Virus record (IMG/VR): IMGVR_UViG_3300032116_000094
Span: 1 to 64,000 of that record
DNA: 64,000 nt
Reading direction: 5' to 3' (one strand)
Origin: a virus
Taxonomy: Duplodnaviria > Heunggongvirae > Uroviricota > Caudoviricetes
Under the pieces are notes generated by a model. The model ran no database searches and was not told the DNA's origin. It saw nothing but the letters and a program-made list of their open reading frames with translations. Of this stretch, positions 1,190 to 19,477 are shown one piece after another. Position numbers and translations under genes: made by a program. Numbering within the stretch: the first letter of the stretch is position 1; every line of letters begins with the position of its first letter.

Positions 1190-1218
1190 AGATACATCCC
1201 AAATAAAATTTATATAAC

Positions 1219-1551: not shown

Positions 1552-1563
1552 AATTTAGATAAC

Positions 1564-1902: not shown

Positions 1903-1906
1903 TAAA

Positions 1907-2221: not shown

Positions 2222-2250
2222 AGATACCTTCCAAATAAAAACTAAGTAAC

Positions 2251-2589: not shown

Positions 2590-2601
2590 AATTTAGATAA
2601 C

Positions 2602-2937: not shown

Positions 2938-2942
2938 ATGAC

Positions 2943-3272: not shown

Positions 3273-3284
3273 AAATTAAATGAT

Positions 3285-3614
3285 ATGAGCAAAAAGGAAT
3301 ATTATAGTAAAATAAAAAGATTTGTTTACAGAAGGTTTGATGAACTGGAAGTGGCTGAAGGTGATAATGGGAATATTTTGTGTTTTGGTTATAAAAACAA
3401 AGGTTATGCGGAGATTGTGATCTATAAAAACTCAGGTCGGGTTTTCTATTCTAAAAGATTCAGAGACAAAATTAATAAGATATTTCGGTTTGAAGAGATT
3501 GATTTTAAAATTTTTTTGAAGAAATGGGTTGAAGATAAATTTAAAATAAAAGTGACCGGCGTCTGGATATCGAAGTTTCTTTCAATGGCAGCATTGAATA
3601 TGCCACCCAAATAA
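3285..3614 (+). CDS. Array-A paralog unit 10
   Basis: ORF. Tail TGVWISKFLSMAAL then NMPPK (recent duplicate of unit 9 tail). Confidence 0.7.
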   Translation: MSKKEYYSKIKRFVYRRFDELEVAEGDNGNILCFGYKNKGYAEIVIYKNSGRVFYSKRFRDKINKIFRFEEIDFKIFLKKWVEDKFKIKVTGVWISKFLSMAALNMPPK

Positions 3615-3626
3615 AAATTAAATGAC

Positions 3627-3971
3627 ATGAGTAAAGAAAAATATTACAACAAAATAAAAAGATACATTTACAGAAAGTTTGAGGAACTGGAGGTATTCGA
3701 AAGTAATGATGGAAATTATTTGTATCTTCGTTACAAACATGCTGAATTTGCTAAAATAGTGGTTAATAAAAGCTTACTTAAAGTTTCCTACTATACTGGA
3801 TTCAGAGATAAAATTAATAAGATAGTTCCGTTGGAAAAACGTGATTTTGAAATTCTATTGAAGAGATGGATTAAAGATACATTTCAAATGAAGATGAAAA
3901 ATGCCAACGCGATAAAGTACGCAGAGGTGCTGCTAGTCGTTGAAGATACTTTTAAAATAAAATTTAGATAA
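3627..3971 (+). CDS. Array-A paralog unit 11
   Basis: ORF. Tail KNANAIKYAEVLLV then VEDTFKIKFR (R2 read in frame a through to KFR*). Confidence 0.7.
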   Translation: MSKEKYYNKIKRYIYRKFEELEVFESNDGNYLYLRYKHAEFAKIVVNKSLLKVSYYTGFRDKINKIVPLEKRDFEILLKRWIKDTFQMKMKNANAIKYAEVLLVVEDTFKIKFR

Positions 3972-3972
3972 C

Positions 3973-4296
3973 ATGAGCAAAGAACAGTATTATAATAAAA
4001 TAAAAAGGTACATTTACAGAAAGTTTGATGAACTGGAAGTGATTAATAAAGGAGCTTATGTGTATCTTCGTTATAAAAACGATGATTATGCCGACATCCT
4101 AATTCGAAAAGAATTAGGTTATGTTTACTATTATTCTGGATTTAAAAAGAAAATTATTAATATAACCCGGTTGGAGACACGTGATTTTGAAATACTTCTG
4201 TACAGATGGATTGAAAATACCCTTCAAATAAAGGTTAATGAGATCTATTCTAAGGGTGGAGAAACCTTCGACAGATTTGAGATTCCTTTCAAATAA
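3973..4296 (+). CDS. Array-A paralog unit 12
   Basis: ORF. Tail NEIYSKGGETFDRFE then IPFK. Confidence 0.7.
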   Translation: MSKEQYYNKIKRYIYRKFDELEVINKGAYVYLRYKNDDYADILIRKELGYVYYYSGFKKKIINITRLETRDFEILLYRWIENTLQIKVNEIYSKGGETFDRFEIPFK

Positions 4297-4308
4297 AATT
4301 TTAATGAT

Positions 4309-4638
4309 ATGAAAAAAGAAGAATATTATAATAAAATAAAAAGATTGGTTTATAGAAAGTTTAACGAACTGGAATTGGTTGAACGTAATAATCGAAATGA
4401 GTTGTATCTTCGTTATAAAAATGGTGACTCCGCTCAAATCATGATCAATAAAAACTCAGGTTGGGTTTACTATTTTAGAAGATTCAGATACAAAATTGAT
4501 AACATGATTCGGTTGGAACAGGATGATTTTGAAATACTTCTAACTAAATGGGTTGAAGATACCTTTAAAATAAAGGTGATCAACACCCATTGCACCGGGT
4601 TCGTTCACCAATTTCCGTTGAAGATACCTTTAAAATAA
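4309..4638 (+). CDS. Array-A paralog unit 13 (followed by a second repeat-spacer module)
   Basis: ORF. Tail INTHCTGFVHQFP then LKIPLK. Downstream 4617-4716 holds another full repeat plus an unrelated spacer. Confidence 0.7.
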   Translation: MKKEEYYNKIKRLVYRKFNELELVERNNRNELYLRYKNGDSAQIMINKNSGWVYYFRRFRYKIDNMIRLEQDDFEILLTKWVEDTFKIKVINTHCTGFVHQFPLKIPLK

Positions 4639-4716
4639 AGGTGATCAACACCATACAGCGGCTGTACTCAAATATATTGCAGGTTGAAGATACCCTTCAA
4701 ATAAAATTTAAATAAC
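4552..4716 (+). repeat. Repeat-spacer-repeat-spacer-repeat module at the 3' end of unit 13
   Basis: gttgaagatacctttaaaataaaggtgatcaaca occurs exactly twice (4552-4585, 4617-4650). A degenerate third copy is at 4683-4706. Intervening segments of 31 and 32 nt are unrelated. Confidence 0.85.
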
Positions 4717-5046
4717 ATGAGCAAAGAACAGTATTATAATAAAATAAAAAAATTCGTGTACAGAAAGTTTGACGAACTGGAAGTGAGCAAACGTAATCTT
4801 GGAAACGATATATTTCTTCATTATAACAATGCGAAATATGATCAGATCCTAATTCAAAAAAAATCGGGTTATATTTACTATCAATCTAAATATAGAGATA
4901 AAATTATTAAACCAATAGCATTGGAAAATGTTGATTTTGAAATACTTTTAAAGCGATGGGTTGAAGATACCTTTCAAATGAAAGTTAATGACACCGGGCT
5001 CAAGTATATGAGCAACGCCACAGAGTTAAAGAAACCTCCCAAATAA
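4717..5046 (+). CDS. Array-A paralog unit 14
   Basis: ORF. Tail NDTGLKYMSNATE then LKKPPK. Confidence 0.7.
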   Translation: MSKEQYYNKIKKFVYRKFDELEVSKRNLGNDIFLHYNNAKYDQILIQKKSGYIYYQSKYRDKIIKPIALENVDFEILLKRWVEDTFQMKVNDTGLKYMSNATELKKPPK

Positions 5047-5058
5047 AAATTAAATGAT

Positions 5059-5403
5059 ATGAGTAAAGAAGACTATTACAGCAAAATAAAAAGATACATT
5101 TACAGAAAGTTTGAGGAACTGGAGGTATTTGAAAGTAGTGATGGAAATGAGATATACCTTTATTATAAAGGTGAAAAATATGCTGAGATCCGAGCTAAAA
5201 GAACTGTAGGTGAACTAATCTATTATTATGGGTTTAGCAACAAAATTATTAAGCCAATTCCTATAGAAAATCGTGATTTTGAAATACTTTTGAGGGTATT
5301 TATTGAAGATACATTTCAAATGAAAGTTAATGAAATCTATGGCTGGGATGGACACAAGACTATCACCGCGTTAAGAATACCTTACAGGTTAAAAGATAAC
5401 TGA
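5059..5403 (+). CDS. Array-A paralog unit 15
   Basis: ORF. Tail NEIYGWDGHKTITA then LRIPYRLKDN. Confidence 0.7.
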   Translation: MSKEDYYSKIKRYIYRKFEELEVFESSDGNEIYLYYKGEKYAEIRAKRTVGELIYYYGFSNKIIKPIPIENRDFEILLRVFIEDTFQMKVNEIYGWDGHKTITALRIPYRLKDN

Positions 5404-5404
5404 T

Positions 5405-5737
5405 ATGAATAAAGAAAAATATTATAATAAAATAAAAAAGTACATTTACAGAAAGTTTAATGAATTAGAAGTTATTGAACGTGATAATGGGAACGACATA
5501 TATCTTCGGTATAAAAATGATGATTATGCTAAGATCCTAGTTAAAAGAAATTCAGGTGAAGTAATTTATTATTATAGATTTAGAAGCAAAATTCTTAAGC
5601 CAATCCCTATAGAAAAGCGTGATTTTGAAATACTTTTGAGCAGATGGGTTGAAGATAAATTCAAAATTAAGGTTAACTATATCCTAATTTTGTCTCCAGG
5701 GTCATTCACAATCAGGTTAAAAATACCTCCCAAATAA
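5405..5737 (+). CDS. Array-A paralog unit 16
   Basis: ORF. MNKEKYY N-term. Tail NYILILSPGSFTIR then LKIPPK. Confidence 0.7.
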   Translation: MNKEKYYNKIKKYIYRKFNELEVIERDNGNDIYLRYKNDDYAKILVKRNSGEVIYYYRFRSKILKPIPIEKRDFEILLSRWVEDKFKIKVNYILILSPGSFTIRLKIPPK

Positions 5738-5749
5738 AAATTAAATGAT

Positions 5750-6064
5750 ATGAGAAAAGAAAAATATTATAATATAATAAAAAAGTACATCTACAGAAAG
5801 TTTGATGTACTGGAAGTGGTTAAACGTAATGATGGCAATACTTTGTATCTTCGTTATAAAAATAACGAATATGCTGAAATCATAATTAATAAAAAATTTG
5901 GCGAAGTATACTATTATTCTGAATATAAGAAGAAAATTTGTTATATGATTGGCATTAATCAGGTTGATTTTGAAATACTTTTGAAGAGCTGGGTTGAAGA
6001 AACCTTTCAAATGAAGGTGAGTTACACCTCAGGAAGTTTTGGTGTTAATTGGCTTGTTCGTTGA
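5750..6064 (+). CDS. Array-A paralog unit 17
   Basis: ORF. Tail SYTSGSFGVNWLVR. Confidence 0.7.
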   Translation: MRKEKYYNIIKKYIYRKFDVLEVVKRNDGNTLYLRYKNNEYAEIIINKKFGEVYYYSEYKKKICYMIGINQVDFEILLKSWVEETFQMKVSYTSGSFGVNWLVR

Positions 6065-6093
6065 AGATACCTTTCAAATAAAAATTAAATGAT

Positions 6094-6423
6094 ATGAGCA
6101 AAGAAGAATATTATAGTAAAATAAAAAAAATCATTTACAGAAAGTTTGACGAACTGGAAGTGGTTAAACGTAATAGAGGAAATAATTTGTATCTTCGTTA
6201 TAAAAATGAAGAATACGCTCAGATTCGAATTAATAAAAAATCAGATTTTGTTTACTATTCTTATACTTTAAGTGACAAAATTTGTAAGATATTTCAGTTG
6301 GAAAAGCGTGATTTTGAAATAATCTTAAGGGCCTGGATTGAAGATACCTTTAAAATTAAACAAATACTTATCCAAAGATGTAATGTGCTGCTGTCATCAA
6401 CGTTGTACATACCTTTGAAATAA
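6094..6423 (+). CDS. Array-A paralog unit 18
   Basis: ORF. Tail QILIQRCNVLLSSTLY then IPLK. Confidence 0.7.
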   Translation: MSKEEYYSKIKKIIYRKFDELEVVKRNRGNNLYLRYKNEEYAQIRINKKSDFVYYSYTLSDKICKIFQLEKRDFEIILRAWIEDTFKIKQILIQRCNVLLSSTLYIPLK

Positions 6424-6435
6424 AAATTCAATGAT

Positions 6436-6777
6436 ATGAGCAAAGAAAAGTATTATAATAAAATAAAAAGATTCATTTATAAAAGGTTTAATGAATTGGA
6501 ACTGATTGAACGTAATAATGGAGAGTATTTGTATCTTCGTTATAAAAATGAAGAATACGCTCAAATCAAGATTAATAAAAAATCAGGTAGGGTTCTTTAT
6601 TATTTTAGATTCAGAAACAAAATTTGTAAGACAATTAGTTTGGAAAAGACTGATTTTGAAATACTTCTGAGCAAATGGGTTGAAGATACCTTTCAAATAA
6701 AAATGATCAGCACCGCTGTACGGACACTGAAACAATCAATGTTGGTTGAAAATACCAACCAAATAAAACTTAAATGA
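6436..6777 (+). CDS. Array-A paralog unit 19
   Basis: ORF. Tail ISTAVRTLKQSML then VENTNQIKLK. Confidence 0.7.
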   Translation: MSKEKYYNKIKRFIYKRFNELELIERNNGEYLYLRYKNEEYAQIKINKKSGRVLYYFRFRNKICKTISLEKTDFEILLSKWVEDTFQIKMISTAVRTLKQSMLVENTNQIKLK

Positions 6778-6778
6778 T

Positions 6779-7093
6779 ATGGATAAAGAAGAATATTATA
6801 ATAAAATAAAAAGATTCATTTATAAAAGGTTTAATGAATTGGAAGTGATTGAACATAATAACGGAAATCTTATATATCTTCATTATAAAAATGAAGGTCA
6901 TGTTGAGGTCATAATTCAAAAAGAATTTGGTAGTGTTTTAAATTACTATAAATTCAGACAAAAAATTTGTAAAATGGTTGACTTGAAAGTGGTTGATTTT
7001 GAAATACTTTTGAACAGATGGGTTGAAGATACCTTAAAAATAAAGGTTGTACGCAACTCAGAATTTGACTTTAAAGTTGTGTTTTCTGGTTGA
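6779..7093 (+). CDS. Array-A paralog unit 20
   Basis: ORF. MDKEEYY N-term. Tail VRNSEFDFKVVFSG. Confidence 0.7.
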   Translation: MDKEEYYNKIKRFIYKRFNELEVIEHNNGNLIYLHYKNEGHVEVIIQKEFGSVLNYYKFRQKICKMVDLKVVDFEILLNRWVEDTLKIKVVRNSEFDFKVVFSG

Positions 7094-7122
7094 AGATGCC
7101 TCCAAAATAAAACTTAAATGAT

Positions 7123-7422
7123 ATGGATAAAGAAGAGTATTATAATAAAATAAAAAATTGGGTGTACAGGAAGTTTGATGAGCTTGAACCACACAAAATT
7201 TATAGTGAGGACACAATATGCCTTCGTTATAAAAATAATAAATATACTCAGATCATAATTAACAAAAAATTAGGCGATGTAGTCTATTATACAGACTACA
7301 GAAACAAAATTTGTAAGCCTATTAGATTGCTACGAGATGATTTTGATATCCTTCTGAGCGAATGGATTGAAGATAGATTTAAAATCAAGGTTACTGACAT
7401 GGCCGGTAGATACTTTTTATAG
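7123..7422 (+). CDS. Array-A paralog unit 21
   Basis: ORF. Tail TDMAGRYFL. Confidence 0.65.
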   Translation: MDKEEYYNKIKNWVYRKFDELEPHKIYSEDTICLRYKNNKYTQIIINKKLGDVVYYTDYRNKICKPIRLLRDDFDILLSEWIEDRFKIKVTDMAGRYFL

Positions 7423-7465
7423 TTGATGAACGTTAAATATGCCTCCAAAATAAAACTTAAATAAT

Positions 7466-7804
7466 ATGGATAAAGAAAAATATTATAATAAAATAAAAAA
7501 ATGGATATATGAAAAGTTCAATGGGCTGAATATATATGAAAGTTATAATGGAAGCACAATATATCTTCATTATAAAAATGATGACCAAGTTCAGATCAAA
7601 ATTAGAAAAAATAGTGGCATAATTCAGTATTATAATGGTTTTATGGATAAAATTATTAAACCAATTTCTTTGAATCCTAATGATTTCGAAATACTCCTAG
7701 GCAGATGGGTTGAAGAAAAGTTTAAAACAGATGTTATTCACATCCGGTCTATTGGTGTTGTGCGTGTTCTGTTTGTTGAACATAAATTCAAAAGGAAAAT
7801 TTAA
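7466..7804 (+). CDS. Array-A paralog unit 22
   Basis: ORF. Tail IHIRSIGVVRVLF then VEHKFKRKI. Confidence 0.65.
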   Translation: MDKEKYYNKIKKWIYEKFNGLNIYESYNGSTIYLHYKNDDQVQIKIRKNSGIIQYYNGFMDKIIKPISLNPNDFEILLGRWVEEKFKTDVIHIRSIGVVRVLFVEHKFKRKI

Positions 7805-7815
7805 TTAAATTAATC

Positions 7816-8127
7816 ATGGATAAAGAAAAATTTTATAATAAAATAAAAATTTGGATATACAGAAAGTTTGATGAACTGGAAGTTAGTGAAAGCTCCGATG
7901 GGACAATAATATGCCTTCGTTACAAAGATAATGCTTACATTCAGGTCAGTATTGAAAAAACATACAACCAAATTATCTATAATGCCGCTTTCAGGGACAA
8001 TATTTCTAAGCTGATTCGATTGCAAAAGCGTGACTTTGAAACACTTCTAAGCAATTGGATTAAAAAGACCTTTAAAATGAAAGTGGCCACCATCATTCCG
8101 GGGTATACAGGTACATTATGTTATTGA
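7816..8127 (+). CDS. Array-A paralog unit 23
   Basis: ORF. Tail ATIIPGYTGTLCY. Confidence 0.65.
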   Translation: MDKEKFYNKIKIWIYRKFDELEVSESSDGTIICLRYKDNAYIQVSIEKTYNQIIYNAAFRDNISKLIRLQKRDFETLLSNWIKKTFKMKVATIIPGYTGTLCY

Positions 8128-8162
8128 AAAAACCTTTCAACTAAAAGTTAAATTATAATAAT

Positions 8163-8480
8163 ATGAGTAAAGAAGAATATTATGATAGAATAAAAAAATG
8201 GCTTTATATTAAGTTTGATGAACTGAAAGTAATTGAAAGCCTTAATGGAAATAACTTATTTTTTAAATATAAAAATCAAAAATATTGTGATATACGAATT
8301 CAAAAAAATTCAGGTATAGTTTTTTATTATTATATGTTTAGTGAGAAATTTTTTAACAGGATTCGTTTGAAAGAGGCTGATTTTGAAATAATTCTGAGCA
8401 AATGGATTGAAGATAGATTTAAAATTAAGGTAACTAAAATGGTTAAAAGGATCGTCGGAAGAGAAATCATTGTTGATTGA
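8163..8480 (+). CDS. Array-A paralog unit 24
   Basis: ORF. Tail TKMVKRIVGREIIVD. Confidence 0.65.
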   Translation: MSKEEYYDRIKKWLYIKFDELKVIESLNGNNLFFKYKNQKYCDIRIQKNSGIVFYYYMFSEKFFNRIRLKEADFEIILSKWIEDRFKIKVTKMVKRIVGREIIVD

Positions 8481-8517
8481 TACCTTTCAAGTGATGGCTA
8501 ATAATAAATAATACGGC

Positions 8518-8835
8518 ATGGATAAAGAACAATATTATAATAAAATAAAAAATTGGTTATCTAACAAGCTTGATAAGCTGTACATAATTGAAACCTCTGA
8601 AGGTACTTTATACCTATATAAAAAGAATGATGATTTTCCTCAGCTCCGGATTCATAAAAGTTCAGGCTTAGTTTGTTATTATATTGGATTCGCAAACGAT
8701 CTGCTTAAAAAGGTTCCAATGGGTATTATTGATTTTGAAATAATTCTGGGTGCATATATTGAAGATATTCTTGAAATTAAGGTGACTGTAATTTCCCCCC
8801 TTCCAACGGTGTATGATGTTGATGATAAATTCTAA
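8518..8835 (+). CDS. Array-A paralog unit 25
   Basis: ORF. Divergent body. Tail TVISPLPTVYDVDDKF. Confidence 0.65.
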   Translation: MDKEQYYNKIKNWLSNKLDKLYIIETSEGTLYLYKKNDDFPQLRIHKSSGLVCYYIGFANDLLKKVPMGIIDFEIILGAYIEDILEIKVTVISPLPTVYDVDDKF

Positions 8836-8857
8836 TTAACAGTATAAATATTTAAAT

Positions 8858-9172
8858 ATGGATAAAGAACAATATTATAATAGAATAAAAAAATGGGTTT
8901 ATGGAAAGTTTGATGAACTGGAAGTGATTAAAAGAAAGAAAGGGAGTAACGTGTATCTTCGTTATAAAAATGGCGAATATACTCAGGTTGAAATTGATAA
9001 AAAATTTGGTCATGTTTACTATTATTATGAATTCAGCGAGAAAATTTGTAAACATCTTCGCATTGAAAAGCATGACTTTGAAATACTTTTGAAAAGATGG
9101 GTCGAAGAGACCTTTCAAATGAAGGTGGATAATGTCATAATTTGTGTAGTACGTAGCCGCCCGATAGCTTAA
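8858..9172 (+). CDS. Array-A paralog unit 26
   Basis: ORF. Tail DNVIICVVRSRPIA. Confidence 0.65.
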   Translation: MDKEQYYNRIKKWVYGKFDELEVIKRKKGSNVYLRYKNGEYTQVEIDKKFGHVYYYYEFSEKICKHLRIEKHDFEILLKRWVEETFQMKVDNVIICVVRSRPIA

Positions 9173-9198
9173 TAAAGGTAAACTATAAATCTTTAAAT

Positions 9199-9525
9199 AT
9201 GGATAAAGAGCAATATTATAATAGCATAAAAAAATTGTTATATAAAAAGTTCGACGAGCTAAAATTATATGATAACCCTAATGGGCTTGTAAGTTATTTA
9301 CATTACGATAGAGATGATTACGCTCAGATCCTAATTTTTAAACACACAGGCCGAGTTTTTTATTATCATGGTTTCGCAAAGAAACTTTTTAAGTTTATTC
9401 GACTAGAATATGAAGATTTTGAAATACTCTTGGGTAGATGGGTTGAAGAAAAATTTAAAATACATGTGAAAAGTATCAGACAGACAACAGATGTCCGCAT
9501 ACCTGGTTTTAACTCTAATTTTTAA
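9199..9525 (+). CDS. Array-A paralog unit 27
   Basis: ORF. Tail KSIRQTTDVRIPGFNSNF. Confidence 0.65.
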   Translation: MDKEQYYNSIKKLLYKKFDELKLYDNPNGLVSYLHYDRDDYAQILIFKHTGRVFYYHGFAKKLFKFIRLEYEDFEILLGRWVEEKFKIHVKSIRQTTDVRIPGFNSNF

Positions 9526-9530
9526 ATGGC

Positions 9531-9824
9531 ATGTATAAAGAAAAATATCATAATAGCATAAAAAAATGGGTTTATAGCAAATTTGATGAACTGCACGTAA
9601 TCTCAAACTGTGAAGAAAATTTATATTTCGGTTATAAAAATGATTCTTTTTTTGTTATACGAATTTATAAAGCCACAGGTAATGTTTATTATACACATCG
9701 CTTGAGAGACCTAGTTAGTAAAAAACTTGCCTTAAATATCATTGATTTTGAGATTCTTTTACGTAGATGGATTGAAAGTAAATGTGAAATTAAAATAAAT
9801 AAAATCATTGACCTCCTTTTTTAA
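9531..9824 (+). CDS. Array-A paralog unit 28
   Basis: ORF. MYKEKYH N-term. Short tail NKIIDLLF. Confidence 0.6.
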   Translation: MYKEKYHNSIKKWVYSKFDELHVISNCEENLYFGYKNDSFFVIRIYKATGNVYYTHRLRDLVSKKLALNIIDFEILLRRWIESKCEIKINKIIDLLF

Positions 9825-9870
9825 TTTGTACATATCCCCCCCATTTTAGCTCCCCCAATTTATTTTTAAT

Positions 9871-9904
9871 TATTTGAATTTGTTAATTTTATCCTGTACC
9901 TTTG
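9871..9904 (+). promoter_or_regulatory. Internal Bacteroidetes-type promoter inside array A
   Basis: TTTG at 9873-9876. ~20-nt spacer. TAccTTTG at 9897-9904. ATG at 9914. Preceded by an unusual C-rich tract (9830-9860). Confidence 0.45.
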
Positions 9905-9913
9905 TTCTTTACT

Positions 9914-10219
9914 ATGAACGAAGATAAGCTATATACTATAACTCAAAAATGGTTACAAAGGAAACTTAGTAATCTGGTCGTATCTGAAGATATCGAAAAA
10001 ATATCACTTAAGCGTAAAGGTGATACTGACTCAACTATTGTGATCTATAAAAATCGTAATCTTGTTTGTTATTTAGGAGGATATAGAAATAAACTTACTA
10101 GTATGTTACCAATGAAAATCAGCCTATTTAATTTCTTATTGAAGAATTGGGTTAAAGATAATTATAACATTGAAATAATAGAAGTTTCCTCTAGTGCTAG
10201 CATGTACAATCATGGATAA
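9914..10219 (+). CDS. Array-A paralog, divergent subfamily (no duplicated R2)
   Basis: ORF 9902..10219. Start moved to ATG 9914 (MNEDKLYTI) because a TAccTTTG -7 box lies at 9897-9904. Motif NWVKDNYNIEI. Confidence 0.55.
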   Translation: MNEDKLYTITQKWLQRKLSNLVVSEDIEKISLKRKGDTDSTIVIYKNRNLVCYLGGYRNKLTSMLPMKISLFNFLLKNWVKDNYNIEIIEVSSSASMYNHG

Positions 10220-10553
10220 AGAAAAGCTATATAACATAGCCGGAAAATGGATTAATAATAAGTTCGATACTCTGGTGAAAGAACAAGACAATGAGCCATC
10301 TTGCATTACTCTGTGTTCTTGTCTCAACAATAAGACTATTATTCGAATTTACAAAAGTGATGGTTGTGTATGTTATAACGTAGATTACATGAAAAAAATA
10401 ATTAAGTTATTCCCCATGCAAATCGAAGATTTCGAATTACTGCTAAAAAAATGGGTACAATATAAATTTGATATTAAAGTAACTGAAGTCATAGCTTTTG
10501 ACTTGTTAATAGTTAACCCCCAAGTTAGTTATATGATTTATGCTCAAAGATAA
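10212..10553 (+). CDS. Array-A paralog, divergent subfamily
   Basis: ORF 10194..10553. Family-type start MDKEKLYNIAGKW at 10212. Overlaps previous stop by 8 nt. Confidence 0.55.
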   Translation: MDKEKLYNIAGKWINNKFDTLVKEQDNEPSCITLCSCLNNKTIIRIYKSDGCVCYNVDYMKKIIKLFPMQIEDFELLLKKWVQYKFDIKVTEVIAFDLLIVNPQVSYMIYAQR

Positions 10554-10836
10554 ATTATACCGTGTGGCTCAAAAATGGACCTACAGGAAGTTTAATAACC
10601 TGGGTGTATGGGAATCTGATCATGTTGTAGAACTTCGCCATGACGACGATCCTCGCATTACTATTCACATTTATAAAGAGCTTGAAAGGGTTTTTTATTA
10701 CGAAGATTACATGCAAAGGATCATTAATGTATTCCCCATGCAAATAGAAGACTTCGAATTGCTTTTATGTCAATGGATTGACGAAAAATTTAAAGTTAAA
10801 ATAAATAACATATATAGAATGAGATTCCGGCCATAA
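10540..10836 (+). CDS. Array-A paralog, divergent subfamily
   Basis: ORF. MLKDKLYRVAQKW..QWIDEKFKVKI. Overlaps previous unit by 14 nt. Confidence 0.55.
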   Translation: MLKDKLYRVAQKWTYRKFNNLGVWESDHVVELRHDDDPRITIHIYKELERVFYYEDYMQRIINVFPMQIEDFELLLCQWIDEKFKVKINNIYRMRFRP

Positions 10837-10873
10837 TATGAAGATGTTATATTTATTAAGATAAAAGATTATT

Positions 10874-11179
10874 ATGGATGATAAATTATATCTAGCGGCA
10901 AGAAGGGTTCTTTATAAGAAATTTGATGTGTTGTTCGTGAGAGAAGATGAGGATAAAATAGACCTTAGCCCTTACGACGACGAATATTCTGTAATTAGAA
11001 TATATAAAAAGTTCGGCATTGTTTATTATATGACAGATTTCAAGAAAAAAGTCATTCAAAAATTTCCGGTACCAAACGTTGATTTTGAAATACTTTTAAT
11101 TATGTGGGTCGAACATAAATTCGGAATTAAAGTTAAAAAAGTCAACAGCTACAGTTGGTATTTAAATGCTTTACTTTGA
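10874..11179 (+). CDS. Array-A paralog, divergent subfamily
   Basis: ORF. MDDKLYLAARR..DFEILLIMWVEHKFGIKV. Confidence 0.6.
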   Translation: MDDKLYLAARRVLYKKFDVLFVREDEDKIDLSPYDDEYSVIRIYKKFGIVYYMTDFKKKVIQKFPVPNVDFEILLIMWVEHKFGIKVKKVNSYSWYLNALL

Positions 11180-11221
11180 AGATATATTTCAGGCTATTGA
11201 ATCTTAAAAACATTTGCCAAT

Positions 11222-11521
11222 ATGAGTAAACTAAAATTTTATGTTAAAGCCGGGAGATGGTTTTATAATCAGTTTGAAAAGTTGACAATTGTCACTGAAC
11301 GCAAAGTTTTACATCTTCACACATATATTGATTTTAAATGCGATATTCGAATTTATCTAAATTATGGTGAAGTATTTTACGATGTAAATTATATGCACAA
11401 GTTGTTTAAACTGTTCCCGATATCACAATCCGACTTTGACACTATTTTAGCCAATTGGGTTGAAAATAAATTCAATATAAATGTGCGAATTATCCGGCCA
11501 TTCAATGAATCGGTTTATTAA
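11222..11521 (+). CDS. Array-A paralog, divergent subfamily
   Basis: ORF. ..SDFDTILANWVENKFNINV. Confidence 0.6.
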   Translation: MSKLKFYVKAGRWFYNQFEKLTIVTERKVLHLHTYIDFKCDIRIYLNYGEVFYDVNYMHKLFKLFPISQSDFDTILANWVENKFNINVRIIRPFNESVY

Positions 11522-11530
11522 AATAGTATT

Positions 11531-11830
11531 ATGAGTAAAGAACTATTATATCTTAAAACCAGGAGATGGTTTTACAAGAAATTTGATCAGTTGATTGTGA
11601 CTGTAGATGAAGATAATATAAATCTCAGTAGTAAAGATAATAAATCGAAATTTGTTCGGATTTATATATATGATGATGAGATTTTGGTATATTATTATAT
11701 TAGATTCAAATATCAGTTAACTAAAATAATACCATTAGAAAGATTGGACTTTGAATTTTTCTTGAAAGAATGGATCGAAGATAAATTCGGCCTAAAAATC
11801 GATTATGTATATGAAAGTGATTATAAGTAA
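11531..11830 (+). CDS. Array-A paralog, divergent subfamily
   Basis: ORF. Near-duplicate of 11857..12156. Ends ..WIEDKFGLKIDYVYESDYK. Confidence 0.6.
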   Translation: MSKELLYLKTRRWFYKKFDQLIVTVDEDNINLSSKDNKSKFVRIYIYDDEILVYYYIRFKYQLTKIIPLERLDFEFFLKEWIEDKFGLKIDYVYESDYK

Positions 11831-11856
11831 TATGGCCCAATCAAAGTATATGTTAT

Positions 11857-12156
11857 ATGAGCGAAAATAAGTTATATATTAAAGTCATAAGATGGTTTTA
11901 CATGAAATTTGATCAGTTGATTGTGACCGCAGATGAAAATCGTATAATCCTCAGTAGTAAAGATAATAAATCGAAATTTGTTCGGATTTATATATATGAT
12001 GATGAGATTTTGGTATATTATTATGCCGGATTCAGATATTATTTAACTAAAATAATACCATTAGAAACATCGGATTTTGAATTGTTCTTGGTAAAATGGA
12101 TCGAAGAGAAATTCGGCCTAAAAATCGATGATGTACGTGAAAGTGATTATAACTAA
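11857..12156 (+). CDS. Array-A paralog, divergent subfamily
   Basis: ORF. Near-duplicate of previous unit, including the shared intergenic block tatggcccaatcaaagtatatgttatATG. Confidence 0.6.
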   Translation: MSENKLYIKVIRWFYMKFDQLIVTADENRIILSSKDNKSKFVRIYIYDDEILVYYYAGFRYYLTKIIPLETSDFELFLVKWIEEKFGLKIDDVRESDYN

Positions 12157-12182
12157 TATGGCCCAATCAAAGTATATGTTAT

Positions 12183-12467
12183 ATGAGCGAAAATAAGTTA
12201 TATCTTAAAACCAGGAGATGGTTTTATAACCAATTTGATAAGTTGAAAGAATCTGAGGACACTGAAAAAATAGTGCTTAGGGATAAGCATGAGTTTTCTG
12301 TGGTCCGTATATATAAATCGGAAAAAGAAGCATTTTATTTCGTATTCTTCAGGTATGATCTGGTTAGTGTTATCCCTATTAAAAATGCAGATTTTGAAAT
12401 GTTTCTGAGAGAATGGATCGAAGATAAATTCAAAATAAAACTAACTAAAATGCACGTCAAAATCTAA
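12183..12467 (+). CDS. Array-A paralog, divergent subfamily
   Basis: ORF. ..DFEMFLREWIEDKFKIKL. Confidence 0.6.
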   Translation: MSENKLYLKTRRWFYNQFDKLKESEDTEKIVLRDKHEFSVVRIYKSEKEAFYFVFFRYDLVSVIPIKNADFEMFLREWIEDKFKIKLTKMHVKI

Positions 12468-12480
12468 GAAACACAGGATC

Positions 12481-12780
12481 ATGAAGAATGAAAAATCATA
12501 TATTAAAATCAGGAAATGGTTTTATCACAAGTTTGATATGCTGACGTTTTATACTACCAATGAAAAAATAAATCTTTTTGATATAGAAGAAGATTCTGTT
12601 ATACGAGTATATTTGATAAACAATGAAGGTGAAATCTTTTATTATGAAGATTTTATGCTTGATCTAGTTAAAATTATACCAATAAGTATCAACGACTTCG
12701 AACTGTTTTTAACATCCTGGATCGAAGATAAATTTAAAATAAAAGTAATTAAGATACACGCAAGTTCAATATCACAATAG
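12481..12780 (+). CDS. Array-A paralog, divergent subfamily
   Basis: ORF. ..DFELFLTSWIEDKFKIKV. Confidence 0.6.
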   Translation: MKNEKSYIKIRKWFYHKFDMLTFYTTNEKINLFDIEEDSVIRVYLINNEGEIFYYEDFMLDLVKIIPISINDFELFLTSWIEDKFKIKVIKIHASSISQ

Positions 12781-12819
12781 TCAAAAAATTTTTAAAATTA
12801 AACTAACAAATTAATTATT

Positions 12820-13125
12820 ATGGACAACCATAAATCATATCGTAGAACCATGAACTGGTTCTATTCCAGGTTTGACAAGCTGATTGTCATTGAAAACAAA
12901 AATAATATAGAGCTTTACAATAAAGATGATCGTGCCTCTATCGTCCGCATTCACTGGACCGGTGTTGTGTATTACTATAAAAGATTCAGAGATGATCTTA
13001 CTAAGATAGTCCCAGTATCAAAAGAAGACTTTGAAATGATTTTTAGTTCCTGGATTGAGAATAAATTTGAAATTCATATAAATACTATTAAAGAGGTTAC
13101 ATATAAACTTCATACACCAAAGTAA
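12820..13125 (+). CDS. Array-A paralog, divergent subfamily (last unit)
   Basis: ORF. ..DFEMIFSSWIENKFEIHI. Confidence 0.6.
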   Translation: MDNHKSYRRTMNWFYSRFDKLIVIENKNNIELYNKDDRASIVRIHWTGVVYYYKRFRDDLTKIVPVSKEDFEMIFSSWIENKFEIHINTIKEVTYKLHTPK

Positions 13126-13205: not shown

Positions 13206-13412
13206 TTATGGTAAGCCAGACGCTGTGTAGATCTGATTTTGTAGTTCTGTCAATTTTCTTTGGCTTTCAATTGCAGTCATAAAACTCTCCGGAGTCAATT
13301 CATCGAGAGAGTTAATATTGAATTTCTGCGTTTTTATAGTAAAAACTTCATATCCGCTATTTGTTTTGGAGATAGTAATACCGTCTTCAATAAATTCTTT
13401 TAGTTCTTTCAT
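13206..13412 (-). CDS. Hypothetical small protein (68 aa)
   Basis: ORF 13206..13463 trimmed to the internal ATG (MKELKEF) so that it does not overlap the tRNA at 13433-13563. Confidence 0.4.
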   Translation of the reverse strand: MKELKEFIEDGITISKTNSGYEVFTIKTQKFNINSLDELTPESFMTAIESQRKLTELQNQIYTASGLP

Positions 13413-13432
13413 AAGAATAAGTTTTAAGTAAT

Positions 13433-13563
13433 CAGTCAGGGCAGGACTCGAACCTGCAACCATGTATGTGTAGCTCTACAAGCTGACCCGGTTTTCATCC
13501 ATCATAGAGCTACTACTCTTTTTCGGATTTAGACCGGGGCGTTACCAATTCCGCCACCTGACT
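13433..13563 (-). tRNA. Class-II tRNA (Ser-TGA-like) with ~33-nt insertion in the anticodon loop, plus an oversized variable region
   Basis: Minus strand AGTCAGG-TG-GCGGAATTGGTAACGCC-CCGGT-CT[AAATCC..GATGGA]TGAAA-ACCGG ... GCAGGTTCGAGTCCTGC-CCTGACT-G. The 7-bp acceptor pairs. The T-arm is GGTTCGAGTCC. Anticodon stem CCGGT/ACCGG is as in bacterial tRNA-Ser. No CCA encoded. Confidence 0.45.
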
Positions 13564-13618
13564 AAAATGGATTACAAAAATAAAGTTACTACTATTATAT
13601 CAAATAGTCAAATGTTTT

Positions 13619-14086
13619 TTATCGCTGAGTAAAAAAGTCTTTCAGGTCGACGGATTCTTGCTTCTCTGTACGAATAATGGCCACATCATAATTTTGTCCG
13701 TCAATAGCAAAAGTAATTACTTCTGTAGCGATATTGGCCAACGGTGATGTTTCAATGTCGCTATCTCTAGGAATCATTAGAACCGTAGTATTGTCCATAA
13801 CTTCGTCATCAGAATTAAGATATATAATCCTTCCTCCGCATGACGTGGGCGTCATAAGACCATCCATAACATGCATCCACATCGGCATACCTTTTATATG
13901 CTTATCATTATACATGTATGTGCGTTCCATTCTCCAGGGAAACATAAAAATATCTGGATCATCAGGAGTCTCATATAGATAGCTTGCATGAAGCATTACG
14001 TTAGAGTCACCAATTCTGATAATGTATTCATCATAATTGGTTTTTACTTTTTTGTTAGGTTCAAGGTCTGTGTATCTGGCAATCAT
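13619..14086 (-). CDS. Family-5 paralog (C-terminal-domain-only version)
   Basis: ORF. RYTDLEPN..TSCGG shared with 14875..15711 (RYTDLTPN..LKCGG) and 17240..17971. Confidence 0.5.
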   Translation of the reverse strand: MIARYTDLEPNKKVKTNYDEYIIRIGDSNVMLHASYLYETPDDPDIFMFPWRMERTYMYNDKHIKGMPMWMHVMDGLMTPTSCGGRIIYLNSDDEVMDNTTVLMIPRDSDIETSPLANIATEVITFAIDGQNYDVAIIRTEKQESVDLKDFFTQR

Positions 14087-18920: not shown

Positions 18921-18999
18921 TGACCAGGACAGGATTCGAACCTGTAAAACCAATGCAGTCTGTCTTATATGGTACGTCTGCCAATTCCGCCACCTGACC
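18921..18999 (-). tRNA. tRNA (identity unresolved; 5' half near-identical to tRNA at 13433-13563)
   Basis: GGTCAGG-TGGCGGAATTGGCAGACG... ACAGGTTCGAATCCTGT-CCTGGTC-A. Acceptor pairs with two G-U. Anticodon arm does not fold canonically by eye (possible small insertion). Confidence 0.45.
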
Positions 19000-19375: not shown

Positions 19376-19418
19376 CGATTAGGCTGTTTTCCGGCGGTCA
19401 CATTTAACCCCACTTACA

Positions 19419-19470
19419 CACCCCCTAGCGGAAGTGCGGGATTCGAACCCTATTGTGAAGCACCCCATCA
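19419..19470 (-). ncRNA. tRNA 3'-half-like element (T-arm GGGTTCGAATCCC nested in a GTGC/GCAC stem) within a 5' leader
   Basis: Minus strand GGGGTGC-TTCACAA-TAGGGTTCGAATCCC-GCACTTCC. No matching acceptor 5' strand or D/anticodon arms found. Confidence 0.3.
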
Positions 19471-19477
19471 CCCTTTA

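What the first reader, a model, noticed from the sequence alone, without database searches (positions are those of the whole stretch)
13433..13563. tRNA-Ser(TGA)-like gene with an insertion in the anticodon loop (131 nt total)
A perfect 7-bp acceptor (AGTCAGG/CCTGACT), class-II D-arm, CCGGT/ACCGG anticodon stem and T-arm are all present. Between C32-T33 and the TGAAA that would complete a CT-TGA-AA loop lies ~33 nt (AAATCCGAAAAAGAGTAGTAGCTCTATGATGGA), itself able to form ATCC/GGAT and AGAG/CTCT stems. The variable region is also unusually long (~30 nt, with an AGCT-tgtag-AGCT hairpin). This is atypical for a bacterial or phage tRNA. Possible explanations are an archaeal/eukaryal-style small intron at a non-canonical position, a permuted or split tRNA, a pseudogene, or a tRNA-embedded regulatory element.
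Basis: partly seen in the sequence, partly recalled or inferred. Interest (0 to 1): 0.65.

Follow-up and report, generated by a model that had tools for sequence, protein, structure and literature searches.

The report
Phage tRNA-shaped RNA with pseudoknotted insert
The odd "tRNA-Ser with an insertion" is real, but it is most likely not an intron-bearing tRNA: it looks like a conserved phage RNA with an intact tRNA top half, whose insert pairs with its over-long variable region, and it belongs to a large family of expanded tRNA-like genes in freshwater phages that I could not find described.

Summary
A 131-nt tRNA-like gene lies on the minus strand at 13563..13433 (Rfam tRNA 42.5 bits). It has a perfect acceptor stem, D arm and T arm. 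Its tRNA-Ser(UGA) anticodon arm is split after U33 by 33 nt, and its variable region is 30 nt.

The intron reading is not supported:
- No BHB motif, ribozyme or group I core is present.
- Two homologues of the whole RNA occur in unrelated phage contigs (GC 49% and 40%, against 30% here). Both have C33, so excision cannot rebuild a normal anticodon loop.
- The insert and variable region are the best conserved parts.
- Insert positions 51-59 pair with variable-region positions 86-94. This 9-bp pseudoknot helix shows two compensatory changes and one wobble change.

The gene also belongs to a large family of phage tRNA-like genes. IMG/VR gave more than 119 loci, with up to 7 copies per array. Members share a tRNA-Leu-type top half (AGUCAGG acceptor) and carry expanded middles 9-139 nt long. 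They sit beside normal tRNA sets and are nearly absent from bacterial genomes.

My best reading is a non-decoding, tRNA-scaffolded structured RNA. Its function is unknown and nothing has been tested experimentally. Covariation for this class rests on three sequences.

The parts
13433..13563 (-). Whole tRNA-like gene 't1' (131 nt; RNA position p = window 13564 - p)
   Evidence: Rfam RF00005 at 42.5 bits; sequence; homologues L296:5333..5202 and L312:7086-7217.
13557..13563 (-). Acceptor 5' strand AGUCAGG (positions 1-7). It pairs with 13434-13440 (CCUGACU). Discriminator G73 is at 13433.
   Evidence: 7/7 pairs. The 1-72 pair changes A-U to G-C in L296. The first 16 nt match the family consensus 16/16.
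13539..13554 (-). D arm, tRNA-Leu type (GCGG AAUUGGUAA CGC), with G18 G19
   Evidence: Rfam alignment. The same D arm is annotated tRNA-Leu in many phages.
13533..13537 (-). Anticodon-stem 5' strand CCGGU (27-31), followed by C32 U33. The partner ACCGG (72-76) is at 13488-13492.
   Evidence: Identical to canonical phage tRNA-Ser(UGA) arms. G29-C74 becomes G-U in both homologues. U31 becomes A in L312.
13498..13530 (-). 33-nt insert (positions 34-66) between U33 and the UGA triplet
   Evidence: Unique in the window. The core is identical in L296 and differs at 2 compensated positions in L312.
13524..13528 (-). Basal helix of the insert, 5' strand AUCCG (36-40). It pairs with UGGAU (63-67) at 13497-13501.
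   Evidence: MFE fold. A36-U67 becomes C-G in L296.
13505..13513 (-). Pseudoknot helix, 5' strand GUAGCUCUA (51-59), inside the insert
   Evidence: 9/9 complementary to positions 86-94. A stem this long appears in 12/1000 shuffles. Two compensatory changes and one wobble change in L312, 27/27 cells paired.
13470..13478 (-). Pseudoknot helix, 3' strand UAGAGCUAC (86-94), inside the variable region
   Evidence: The competing local hairpin 80-84/88-92 loses a pair in L312 and shows no compensatory change.
13458..13487 (-). 30-nt variable region (77-106), including a 12-nt single-stranded tail ACAUACAUGGUU
   Evidence: Identical in L296.
13441..13457 (-). T arm GCAGG UUCGAGU CCUGC (107-123)
   Evidence: Rfam alignment. 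The 49-65 pair is G-C here, A-U in L296 and G-U in L312.
13575..13582 (-). TATTTTTG, a match to the Bacteroidota -7 promoter element TAnnTTTG, ending 11 nt upstream of position 1 (inferred; weak)
   Evidence: Read. The motif occurs upstream of 17/150 family genes against a 3.5% background, with its most frequent spacing 4 nt from the gene start (8 of 18 motif occurrences). No sigma-70 promoter or terminator flanks the gene.
18921..18999 (-). Second family member 't2' (79 nt). It has the same first 18 nt, a 23-nt anticodon-arm region instead of 17, and A73.
   Evidence: Rfam tRNA at 36.4 bits; shared 18-mer; homologue at L136:4252-4325.

Best explanation
t1 is a phage-encoded, non-decoding tRNA-like RNA.

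Anatomy (shown):
- Its top half (acceptor stem, D arm with G18G19, T arm) is an intact tRNA elbow and acceptor of the tRNA-Leu type.
- Its bottom half was derived from a tRNA-Ser(UGA) anticodon arm and has been rebuilt into a larger structured domain.
- The 33-nt 'insert' is kept in the RNA. Its base forms a 5-bp helix (36-40/63-67).
- Its 3' half (51-59) pairs with the over-long variable region (86-94). This 9-bp helix is pseudoknotted with respect to the anticodon stem.
- The same RNA occurs in three unrelated phage genomes.
- It is one class within a large family of tRNA-like genes with a constant AGUCAGG-type top half and diverse expanded middles. These genes sit in phage tRNA arrays beside complete sets of ordinary tRNAs.

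Mechanism (inferred):
- The tRNA top half serves as a natural scaffold. It would give RNase P 5' processing, 3' trimming with CCA addition, and a stable L-shaped fold.
- The pseudoknotted bottom domain is the specific working part. It probably binds or mimics something in the tRNA world of the host, for example as a decoy or competitor for a tRNA-binding enzyme. Alternatively it could be an aminoacylated carrier that cannot decode.
- The partner is unknown.
For: Structure and origin:
- Rfam tRNA hit and fold.
- The split arm equals a canonical phage Ser(UGA) arm, and t1 is the only one of 155 genes with that property.

Homologues:
- L296 (GC 49%; DnaB, DnaA-HTH and methylase module) shares no other similarity with the window by tblastx.
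- L312 comes from a 123-kb contig (GC 40%) and lies inside an array of at least 7 family genes.
- Identities are 92%, 90% and 88%.

Conservation pattern:
- All 10 differences between t1 and L296 avoid the insert core and the variable region. P = 0.0016, or 0.011 after removing the 22 nt fixed by the search pattern.

Covariation:
- Changes on both sides at 1-72, 49-65 and 36-67, and at two pairs of the 51-59/86-94 helix, plus one wobble change there.
- 99% of cells are paired. 1/500 shuffles reach the observed values. Slid controls give 29-44% paired and no double changes.
- The local-hairpin alternative scores lower.

Loss of decoding features:
- U33 is C in both homologues, and A31-A72 is a mismatch in L312.

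Family:
They gave 152 unique genes of 60-190 nt.
- ARAGORN accepts only 28 of them, mostly poorly.
- Only 2 of 129 have a simple canonical anticodon arm.
- The arrays also hold ordinary tRNA-Leu and tRNA-Ser(UGA) genes with other acceptor stems.
- Subfamilies keep structured middles with compensatory changes. Within subfamilies the middle diverges no faster than the D arm.
- Only 23 hits in 185,579 species genomes, all on MAG contigs and mostly in Bacteroidota bins.
Against: - No expression, processing or aminoacylation data exist.
- Covariation for the t1 class rests on three sequences. Two of them were found with patterns taken from the insert, so conservation of the pattern-specified bases is by construction.
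- t1 itself still has C32-U33 and UGA-A37-A38 around the insert, a perfect 5-bp stem and G73. It therefore could be a spliceable tRNA-Ser even if its homologues are not.
- The pseudoknot and the local hairpins exclude each other, and nested folding rates them within 2.8 kcal/mol. The RNA may switch between them.
- The family was collected with a 23-nt 3' motif, so constancy of the T arm and acceptor is partly by construction.
- No partner protein recurs next to the genes (best cluster 14/119 loci, terminase-like by eye, no domain search run).
- No antisense target was found in the window.
Confidence: 0.6

Rival explanations
1. It is an intron-containing tRNA-Ser(UGA). The 33 nt are removed between U33 and U34 by a protein endonuclease plus an RNA ligase (phage or host), or by an unrecognised self-cleaving fold. 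The product is a ~98-nt class II tRNA that reads UCA, which would be useful to a 30% G+C phage.
For: - Excision rebuilds exactly CCGGU-CUUGAAA-ACCGG, the arm of canonical phage tRNA-Ser(UGA).
- G73 and a long variable region fit Ser identity (established knowledge of bacterial SerRS recognition).
- ARAGORN in intron mode accepts the gene.
- Position 33/34 is where some anticodon nucleases cut (own knowledge).
Against: - No BHB motif can form (by hand).
- No ribozyme or group I hit at E <= 10.
- No RNA ligase, kinase-phosphatase or splicing endonuclease domain was found among the 65 window ORFs scanned.
- Both homologues have C33, and L312 also breaks the 31-72 pair, so excision gives no U33 loop.
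- The insert is more conserved than the tRNA body, and it covaries with the variable region, which would remain in the mature tRNA.
- The variable region carries an extra 12-nt tail.
- IMG/VR scans for other Ser(UGA) arms split in this way found none.
Confidence: 0.12
2. It is a decaying tRNA pseudogene: a former tRNA-Ser(UGA) disabled by one or two insertions and drifting, with no function.
For: - Phage tRNA arrays contain many degenerate tRNA-like genes.
- The insert sits where it abolishes decoding.
- Default ARAGORN rejects the gene.
Against: - The RNA is 88-92% identical in three phages whose genomes differ by up to 19 points in G+C. L296 shares nothing else detectable with the window (tblastx); L312 was not compared.
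- Seven stem substitutions between t1 and L296, and nine between t1 and L312, all keep pairing except the one at the 31-72 pair in L312.
- The insert and the variable region are the most conserved parts.
- G+C is 50% in a 31% background.
Confidence: 0.07
3. It is a cis-acting processing signal only. The tRNA-like top half recruits RNase P and 3' processing enzymes to cut the polycistronic transcript between the 155-aa and 68-aa genes (tRNA punctuation). The released RNA has no role of its own.
For: - The gene lies 55 nt after one co-oriented ORF and about 20 nt before the next, with no sigma-70 promoter or terminator between them.
- Exactly the parts that RNase P and CCA-adding enzymes read (acceptor, T arm, elbow) are the constant parts of the family (enzyme specificity from established knowledge).
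Against: - Punctuation would not need a 60-nt conserved, covarying pseudoknot domain.
- In L312 and many IMG/VR loci the genes sit in tRNA arrays rather than between ORFs.
- Subfamily-specific middles are conserved.
Confidence: 0.12
4. It is a protein-binding kink-turn or box C/D-like element, or a miniature tmRNA, carried in a tRNA frame. AUGAUGG with CCGA resembles box C and box D. A 9-codon ORF (AUG AUG GAU GAA AAC CGG GUC AGC UUG UAG) runs from the insert into the variable region.
For: - Weak C/D snoRNA matches cover 13472-13511 (snoZ163 at 14.9 bits, E = 1.6; sR3 at 8.7 bits, E = 7.1).
- CCGAAAAAG and CUAUGAUGG are kept in all three homologues.
- Relatives of this phage encode true tmRNAs.
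Against: - The E-values are at chance level and far below the gathering scores.
- Four extra A residues prevent a standard k-turn (by hand).
- Conservation of those two motifs in L312 is by construction of the search pattern.
- There is no G3-U70 alanine identity pair (it is U3-A70), and ARAGORN calls no tmRNA.
- The ORF is short enough to be chance.
Confidence: 0.05

Closest known systems
Canonical bacterial/phage class II tRNAs (tRNA-Ser(UGA), tRNA-Leu)
   Same: 7-bp acceptor stem, D arm with G18G19, T arm with UUCGA loop, a 5-bp anticodon stem identical to tRNA-Ser(UGA), and a discriminator base. It passes the Rfam tRNA gathering score.
   Different: The stretch enclosed by the anticodon stem is 40 nt instead of a 7-nt loop. 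The homologues have C33. The variable region is 30 nt and pairs with the insert. The D arm is of Leu type while the anticodon arm is of Ser type.
Intron-containing tRNAs (archaeal/eukaryal BHB introns; bacterial group I introns in anticodon loops)
   Same: An intervening sequence inside the anticodon loop, whose excision in t1 would restore a canonical loop.
   Different: No BHB motif. The position is 33/34, not 37/38. At 33 nt it is far too short for group I, and there is no Rfam hit. The insert is more conserved than the flanks and covaries with a region outside the loop.
tmRNA
   Same: A tRNA-like acceptor and T-arm domain combined with pseudoknotted RNA in place of a decoding anticodon arm. 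tmRNAs are encoded by relatives of this phage.
   Different: 131 nt rather than about 350-400 nt. It keeps a full D arm and an anticodon stem. It has no G3-U70 pair and no recognised tag frame. Neither ARAGORN nor Rfam calls it a tmRNA.
Phage T4 stable RNAs 'species 1 and 2' (rnaC, rnaD) in the T4 tRNA cluster (own knowledge, not tested here)
   Same: Small stable RNAs of unknown function encoded among phage tRNA genes, with tRNA-like termini processed by the tRNA machinery.
   Different: No sequence comparison was made. The present family has a fully conserved tRNA-Leu-type top half, is multi-copy, and is highly diversified.
Bacterial Y RNA-like YrlA tRNA mimics, and engineered 'tRNA scaffold' RNAs (Chen et al. 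2014, PMC4201824, listed; scaffolds from own knowledge)
   Same: tRNA elbow and acceptor features are used as a stable frame, while another module replaces the anticodon arm. Engineered scaffolds insert the cargo precisely into the anticodon stem, as seen here.
   Different: YrlA is permuted (its acceptor is closed by a loop) and works with Rsr/Ro60. Here the 5' and 3' ends are those of a normal tRNA and no partner is known. A permuted YrlA-like element does occur elsewhere in the window (about 19385-19475).

Membership tests
tRNA (Rfam RF00005) | Score at or above the curated gathering threshold, with the full cloverleaf | tested here: met
   42.5 bits against 29, model positions 1-71. L296 homologue scores 33.1 bits.
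tRNA (functional decoder) | 7-nt anticodon loop with U33 and a purine at 37 | tested here: not met
   40 nt lie between the stem strands. Default ARAGORN gives no call. The homologues have C33, so excision cannot give U33.
tRNA-Ser identity (bacterial) | Long variable arm free to contact SerRS, G73, and charging by SerRS | not testable with these tools
   G73 is present in t1 and L296, and A73 in L312. The variable region is predicted to be paired with the insert. Aminoacylation would need an assay.
Archaeal/eukaryal-type tRNA intron | Bulge-helix-bulge (3-nt bulge, 4-bp helix, 3-nt bulge) placing both splice sites | tested here: not met
   By hand on the fold. Positions 32-35 (CUAA) against 65-68 (GAUG) give 1 of 4 pairs. 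The internal loops are symmetric 4x4, not staggered bulges. No arrangement puts 33|34 and 66|67 in opposed bulges.
Archaeal/eukaryal-type tRNA intron | Splicing endonuclease and RNA ligase available | tested here: inconclusive
   No such Pfam domain among 65 window ORFs. However, the window is only 64 kb of a genome seen on contigs in the 0.2-1 Mb size class, and the host is unknown.
Group I intron in a tRNA anticodon loop | Catalytic core P3-P9 (about 200 nt or more) | tested here: not met
   The insert is 33 nt, and there is no Intron_gpI hit at E <= 10. The same model does find a true group I intron in L162.
Small self-cleaving ribozymes (hammerhead, twister, pistol, hatchet, HDV-like and others in Rfam) | Match to a family covariance model | tested here: not met
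   No such match at E <= 10 in 13350-13650. No canonical CUGAUGA...GAAA hammerhead core by eye.
tmRNA | G3-U70 pair, tag reading frame, and detection by ARAGORN or Rfam | tested here: not met
   The 3-70 pair is U3-A70. There is no ARAGORN tmRNA call and no Rfam tmRNA hit.
Box C/D k-turn RNA | RUGAUGA and CUGA boxes forming a k-turn; model match | tested here: inconclusive
   AUGAUGG and CCGA are present. Hits are at chance level (E = 1.6 and 7.1, 14.9 and 8.7 bits against gathering scores of 39 and 41). The loop geometry is non-standard.
Phage 'AGUCAGG' expanded tRNA-like family (defined here) | Acceptor AGUCAGG/CCUGACU, a GUGGCGGAAUUGG D arm and an ACAGGUUCGAAUCCUGU-type T arm | tested here: met
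   16/16 identity to the 5' consensus and 21/25 to the 3' consensus. The t1 homologue in L312 lies inside an array of at least 7 members.
Phage 'AGUCAGG' expanded tRNA-like family (defined here) | Expanded, non-canonical region between the D arm and the T arm | tested here: met
   The t1 middle is about 80 nt. The family median is 54 nt (range 9-139), and 102/152 exceed 40 nt.

The most novel reading that the evidence does not exclude
Freshwater (probably Bacteroidota-infecting) phages carry a large family of natural 'tRNA-scaffold' RNAs that I could not find described. Each has a constant tRNA-Leu-type top half that the host tRNA maturation machinery would process. That top half is fused to dozens of different structured cargo domains placed in the anticodon and variable region. 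t1 is one such class, with an insert-to-variable-arm pseudoknot, and it has been exchanged between unrelated phages. The cargo domains would be a diversified toolkit acting on host tRNA-binding proteins or defence systems.
Probability: 0.4. Interest if true: 0.85.

Novelty: new variant of a known kind. Interest (0 to 1): 0.7.

Why it matters
- Annotation: genes that pipelines file as tRNA, pseudo-tRNA or nothing in phage tRNA arrays would turn out to include a large, diversified class of structured non-coding RNAs.
- Biology: phages would be using the tRNA fold as a processing and stability frame for other RNA modules. That is the strategy engineers adopted for recombinant RNA expression.
- Research use: the family would give many compact, naturally selected RNA domains for structural and functional study. 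t1 offers a tRNA body with a pseudoknot that bridges the anticodon loop and the variable arm.
- Method: it warns against reading every interruption of a tRNA gene as an intron.
- Context: the family co-occurs with GOLLD RNA, tmRNAs and other tRNA mimics in the same phage group. This points to a rich and largely unexplored RNA biology in huge freshwater phages.

Tried and rejected
1. Cultured phages. Similarity searches of t1 and of 12 kb around it found only generic T-arm matches or nothing. The family's 5' and 3' consensus sequences gave only generic tRNA-Leu or T-arm similarity.
2. IMG/VR scans for the exon-insert junction and for Ser(UGA) arms split by 15-50 nt found no other split Ser arm. 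Hits were coding-sequence chance matches, normal tRNA-Ser genes, or a tRNA 3' fragment in L111.
3. The single metagenome scan returned two chance matches and did not even contain this phage.
4. The 155-aa neighbour has no homologues and no related IMG/VR loci.
5. The 253-aa neighbour has 13 homologues, but only one relative (L136) keeps a tRNA-like gene downstream. That gene has the same acceptor stem but a different D arm and middle, and it lies inside a ~750-nt non-coding block. It is therefore not a useful orthologue.
6. Hammerhead, k-turn and BHB models built by hand did not fit.
7. A search for antisense targets of the t1 middle in the window found nothing better than E = 0.05.
8. A search for a recurrent neighbouring protein across 119 family loci gave no association; the best cluster covered 14 loci and looks terminase-like by eye (no domain search run).
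9. Relaxed Rfam scans of 11 family loci found no known aptamer or ribozyme inside the expanded middles.
10. I considered that the 274-aa class II aaRS-core ORF, or the adjacent array of ~305-aa paralogues, might be dedicated charging enzymes. The ORF is single, is not related to the array, and resembles AsnRS/AsnA only weakly. This stays a lead only.
11. I decided against building a covariance model, because the pseudoknot cannot be represented and BLAST had already shown no further t1-class members in the loci held.
Full report
**1. The observation**

The gene is on the minus strand, window 13563..13433, 131 nt. I number the RNA so that position p corresponds to window coordinate 13564 - p.

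- Rfam's tRNA model matches exactly these ends at 42.5 bits (gathering score 29; E = 1.2e-5 for the 64-kb window). It places a 38-nt insertion in the anticodon loop and a long variable region.
- Acceptor stem AGUCAGG/CCUGACU has 7/7 pairs.
- The D arm carries G18G19.
- The anticodon stem is CCGGU/ACCGG.
- The T arm is GCAGG-UUCGAGU-CCUGC.
- The discriminator is G73. No CCA is encoded.
- The single-sequence MFE fold is -46.4 kcal/mol, z = -2.95. It draws the insert as a rod: a 5-bp helix 36-40/63-67 and a 5-bp hairpin 45-49/54-58, separated by 4x4 internal loops.
- Default ARAGORN does not call the gene.
- With intron search on, ARAGORN calls 'tRNA-Val(aac)' with a 38-nt intron and a mismatched stem. 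That is a poorer solution than a 33-nt insert between U33 and U34 of a Ser(UGA) loop.
- That split is not a subjective resemblance. The exact 17-mer CCGGTCT|TGAAAACCGG of tRNA-Ser(UGA) is recovered around the insert (intact examples).
- The gene has 50% G+C in a ~31% background.
- It is identical in five other complete metagenomic copies of the same phage.

**2. Context**

- The window is AT-rich phage DNA. It encodes ThyX, an SLT lytic transglycosylase, DUF932, NUDIX, thioredoxin/glutaredoxin and Metallophos domains.
- A GOLLD RNA (231.5 bits) lies about 420 nt downstream of a tRNA-Met gene.
- There are two long arrays of tandem paralogous ORFs.
- The same sequence occurs in freshwater-lake assemblies, on contigs in the 0.2-1 Mb size class. 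This is therefore a huge phage.
- t1 lies 55 nt after a co-oriented 155-aa ORF and about 20 nt before a 68-aa ORF. No sigma-70-type promoter or terminator lies between them.
- A TAnnTTTG element, the Bacteroidota -7 box, ends 11 nt upstream.
- A second odd tRNA-like gene, t2 (18999..18921; Rfam 36.4 bits), shares the first 18 nt with t1. Its anticodon-arm region is 23 nt.

**3. Tests of the intron idea on t1 alone**

- A bulge-helix-bulge cannot be drawn. With the anticodon stem as the outer helix, the required central helix 32-35/65-68 has 1 of 4 pairs. The internal loops are symmetric rather than staggered bulges.
- A relaxed Rfam scan of 301 nt (E <= 10) finds no hammerhead, twister, pistol, hatchet, HDV-like or group I match. 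It gives only chance-level C/D-box hits over AUGAUGGAUGAAA.
- The insert is unique in the window.
- No RNA ligase or splicing endonuclease domain is seen among the 65 ORFs scanned. The window is only part of the genome.
- IMG/VR scans for other Ser(UGA) arms split by 15-50 nt found none.

**4. A large family**

*How it was found.* The 253-aa neighbour has relatives. One of them, L136 (77% identity), carries a 120-nt tRNA-like gene at the corresponding place. It has the same acceptor stem but a different D arm and a 37-nt rod-like 'anticodon arm' with no usable loop. I then searched IMG/VR with the shared 3' end, CAGGTTCGANTCCTGYCCTGRYY.

*What the genes look like.*
- They read AGUCAGG-UGGCGGAAU(U)GGUAGACGC ... 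middle ... ACAGGUUCGAAUCCUGU-CCUGACU-A.
- They are 60-190 nt long.
- Positions 8-16 were not constrained by the search, yet they are 62-96% conserved. t1 matches them 16/16.
- The D arm is the generic tRNA-Leu D arm.

*How far they depart from normal tRNAs.*
- Of 152 unique genes, ARAGORN accepts 28, most with mismatched stems or loops of 6, 8 or 9 nt.
- Only 2 of 129 have a simple canonical anticodon arm in constrained folds.
- The region between the D arm and the T arm has a median of 54 nt (range 9-139). It exceeds 40 nt in 102 genes.
- Only 24 of 86 arms at the anticodon position have a normal span.
- Some genes also carry a covarying hairpin in the D loop (L224, L228).

*Diversity and constraint of the middles.*
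- The middles fall into 132 similarity clusters.
- Within small subfamilies they keep hairpins through compensatory changes.
- Within subfamilies they diverge no faster than the D arm: 21% against 18% over 36 pairs. These pairs were selected for alignable middles.

*Where the genes sit.*
- Rfam sees nothing but 'tRNA' in these genes, even at relaxed thresholds.
- They lie inside tRNA arrays that also contain ordinary tRNA-Leu and tRNA-Ser(UGA) genes with other acceptor stems. They are therefore not the decoding set.
- In one genome per species of GTDB the motif occurs only 23 times. All hits are on MAG contigs, and roughly half are binned with Bacteroidota.
- No cultured phage carries the motif.
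- TAnnTTTG is enriched just upstream: 17/150 against a 3.5% background.
- No protein family recurs next to the genes.

**5. True homologues of t1**

Scans with pieces of the insert found two homologues:
- L296:5333..5202, on an 8.3-kb contig with 49% G+C that encodes DnaB, a DnaA-type HTH and a DNA methylase.
- L312:7086-7217, on a 123-kb contig with 40% G+C, inside an array of at least seven family genes.

tblastx finds no similarity between L296 and the window other than this RNA gene. The three RNAs are 88-92% identical.

*(a) The decoding features decay.* U33 is C in both homologues. In L312, U31 is A, which breaks the 31-72 pair. No excision can then produce a 7-nt loop with U33.

*(b) The 'insert' and the variable region are the most conserved parts.* The 10 differences between t1 and L296 all lie elsewhere. 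P = 0.0016, or 0.011 after discounting the 22 nt fixed by the search pattern.

*(c) Stems covary.*
- 1-72: A-U to G-C.
- 49-65 in the T stem: G-C, A-U and G-U.
- 36-67 at the base of the insert: A-U to C-G.
- 29-74: G-C to G-U.

*(d) The insert pairs with the variable region.* The 9-nt segment 51-59 (GUAGCUCUA) is perfectly complementary to 86-94 (UAGAGCUAC).
- In t1 alone, a perfect Watson-Crick stem of 9 bp or longer appears in 12 of 1000 dinucleotide shuffles.
- L312 has five substitutions in these two segments, and all keep the pairing. A53-U92 becomes G-C, G54-C91 becomes A-U, and U56-A89 becomes U-G. That gives 27/27 cells paired.
- These L312 positions were not specified in the search pattern.
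- The same substitutions weaken the competing local variable hairpin, which gets one mismatch and two new wobbles and shows no compensatory change.
- For the whole pseudoknotted model, 99% of cells pair. Five pairs change on both sides. Only 1 of 500 column shuffles reaches the observed values. Slid controls give 29-44% pairing and no double changes.

With three sequences this is suggestive rather than conclusive.

**6. Interpretation**

*Shown:*
- t1 is an RNA gene under purifying selection for a tRNA top half plus an enlarged bottom domain.
- That domain contains the former Ser(UGA) anticodon stem, a basal insert helix, and a long-range helix to the variable region that crosses the anticodon stem.
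- The RNA is shared by unrelated phages.
- It belongs to a family whose members mostly cannot decode.

*Inferred:*
- The top half is retained because it gives RNase P and 3'-end/CCA maturation and a stable fold. The anticodon arm is dispensable for those enzymes (established knowledge).
- The bottom domain is the specific effector.
- Nested folding puts the helix-swapped conformer only 2.8 kcal/mol above the cloverleaf-like fold. A switch between the two is possible.

I put 0.6 on this 'tRNA-scaffolded, non-decoding structured RNA' reading. The rivals are a spliced tRNA-Ser (0.12), a purely cis-acting processing signal (0.12), a pseudogene (0.07), and a k-turn or mini-tmRNA reading (0.05). The biological role (decoy, competitor, charged carrier or other) is unknown. 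I found no antisense target and no partner gene.

**7. Relation to known systems and novelty**

The closest known things are:
- tmRNA (tRNA-like domain plus pseudoknots);
- the T4 'species 1 and 2' stable RNAs in its tRNA cluster (own knowledge);
- YrlA tRNA mimics (PMC4201824);
- engineered tRNA scaffolds.

t1 fails defining features of a decoding tRNA, of BHB and group I introns, of the known small ribozymes, and of tmRNA (see the membership table). Six of my full-text searches for phage tRNA introns, phage tRNA-like RNAs and non-canonical phage tRNAs found no description of such a family. The GOLLD and ROOL papers mention only proximity to tRNA islands. The library is incomplete, so prior description cannot be excluded. 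I rate it a new variant of a known kind (tRNA-like non-coding RNA), with interest 0.7.

**8. Caveats**

- There are no expression data.
- The t1 class has three sequences, two of them found with insert-derived patterns.
- The family was collected through a fixed 3' motif and a capped scan.
- Pseudoknot energetics were not computed.
- t1 itself, unlike its homologues, still has U33 and UGA, so splicing of this particular copy is not excluded.

Noticed in passing
window 49707-50134 (-) and 50551-50623 (-): A complete GOLLD RNA (Rfam 231.5 bits, model 1-416) lies about 420 nt downstream of a tRNA-Met(CAU) gene that has a U1-C72 mismatch. This is the arrangement reported for the marine env-38 GOLLD.
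   Followed up: partly
window 18921-18999 (-): Second atypical tRNA-like gene (t2; Rfam 36.4 bits; missed by the whole-window scan). It has the same first 18 nt as t1 and a 23-nt anticodon-arm region. Its homologue at L136:4252-4325 has a 6-nt loop.
   Followed up: partly
window ~19385-19475 (-); L136 ~4160-4245: Permuted tRNA-like element: a T arm (GGGUUCGAAUCCC), then CACUUCC-GCUA-GGGGGUG (an acceptor stem closed by a tetraloop), then a D-like segment. It is conserved in L136 with compensatory changes (CAUUUCC/GGAGGUG). The topology resembles YrlA. No Rfam hit.
   Followed up: partly
window 190-13125 (+) and 35743-45127 (-): Two long tandem arrays of paralogous ORFs: about 40 copies of ~100-114 aa and 10 copies of ~300-319 aa. 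None of the copies scanned (two of the ~100-aa array, two of the ~300-aa array) has a Pfam match. Invariant W, Y and D positions in the ~300-aa set.
   Followed up: partly
window 34872-35696 (-): A 274-aa ORF with a class II aminoacyl-tRNA synthetase catalytic core (PF00152 at 33 bits, cutoff 25; motif 2 YRNE..RH and motif 3 GGGIGLTRL by eye). It has no anticodon-binding domain and only weak AsnRS/AsnA similarity. It is unrelated to the neighbouring array. This is intriguing in a phage rich in anticodon-less tRNA-like RNAs, but no link has been shown.
   Followed up: partly
L136 5850-6600; L294 and L295: The tRNA-like gene of the relative L136 lies in a ~750-nt G+C-richer non-coding block. Its upstream part (CCTTGAGAAAG...ACACAGAGG..TCTCA) is also found upstream of a 79-nt family member in L294 and L295. 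This may be a larger unknown structured RNA with an embedded tRNA-like unit. There is a weak skipping-rope hit at L136:6427-6497 (25.2 bits against 36.7).
   Followed up: no
L138, L139, L147 (tmRNA); L141 (ClpP); L138, L141, L151 (ClpB-like): Relatives of this phage encode a 399-nt tmRNA (tag GNTFAKLSALSLIKEEAAVAA) together with ClpB-like, ClpP and HSP20 genes.
   Followed up: no
L143, L145, L146 (minus strand, e.g. L143 ~2330-2380 in reverse-strand coordinates): A 51-nt mini tRNA-like unit made of an acceptor stem and a T arm only (GGGGAUA ... CUUGGUUCGAAUCCAAG UAUCCUC A), lying between lysis genes.
   Followed up: no
L162 7609-8193 (-); L171 4124-4186 (+): In other family-bearing phage contigs, a group I intron (97.8 bits) abuts or interrupts a tmRNA gene (49.2 bits). 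A 'freshwater-1' RNA (70.1 bits, just under its gathering score of 72) sits inside a tRNA array.
   Followed up: no
window 13478-13504 (-), RNA positions 60-89: A short reading frame, AUG AUG GAU GAA AAC CGG GUC AGC UUG UAG, runs from the insert into the variable region. It was seen by eye and is probably chance.
   Followed up: no
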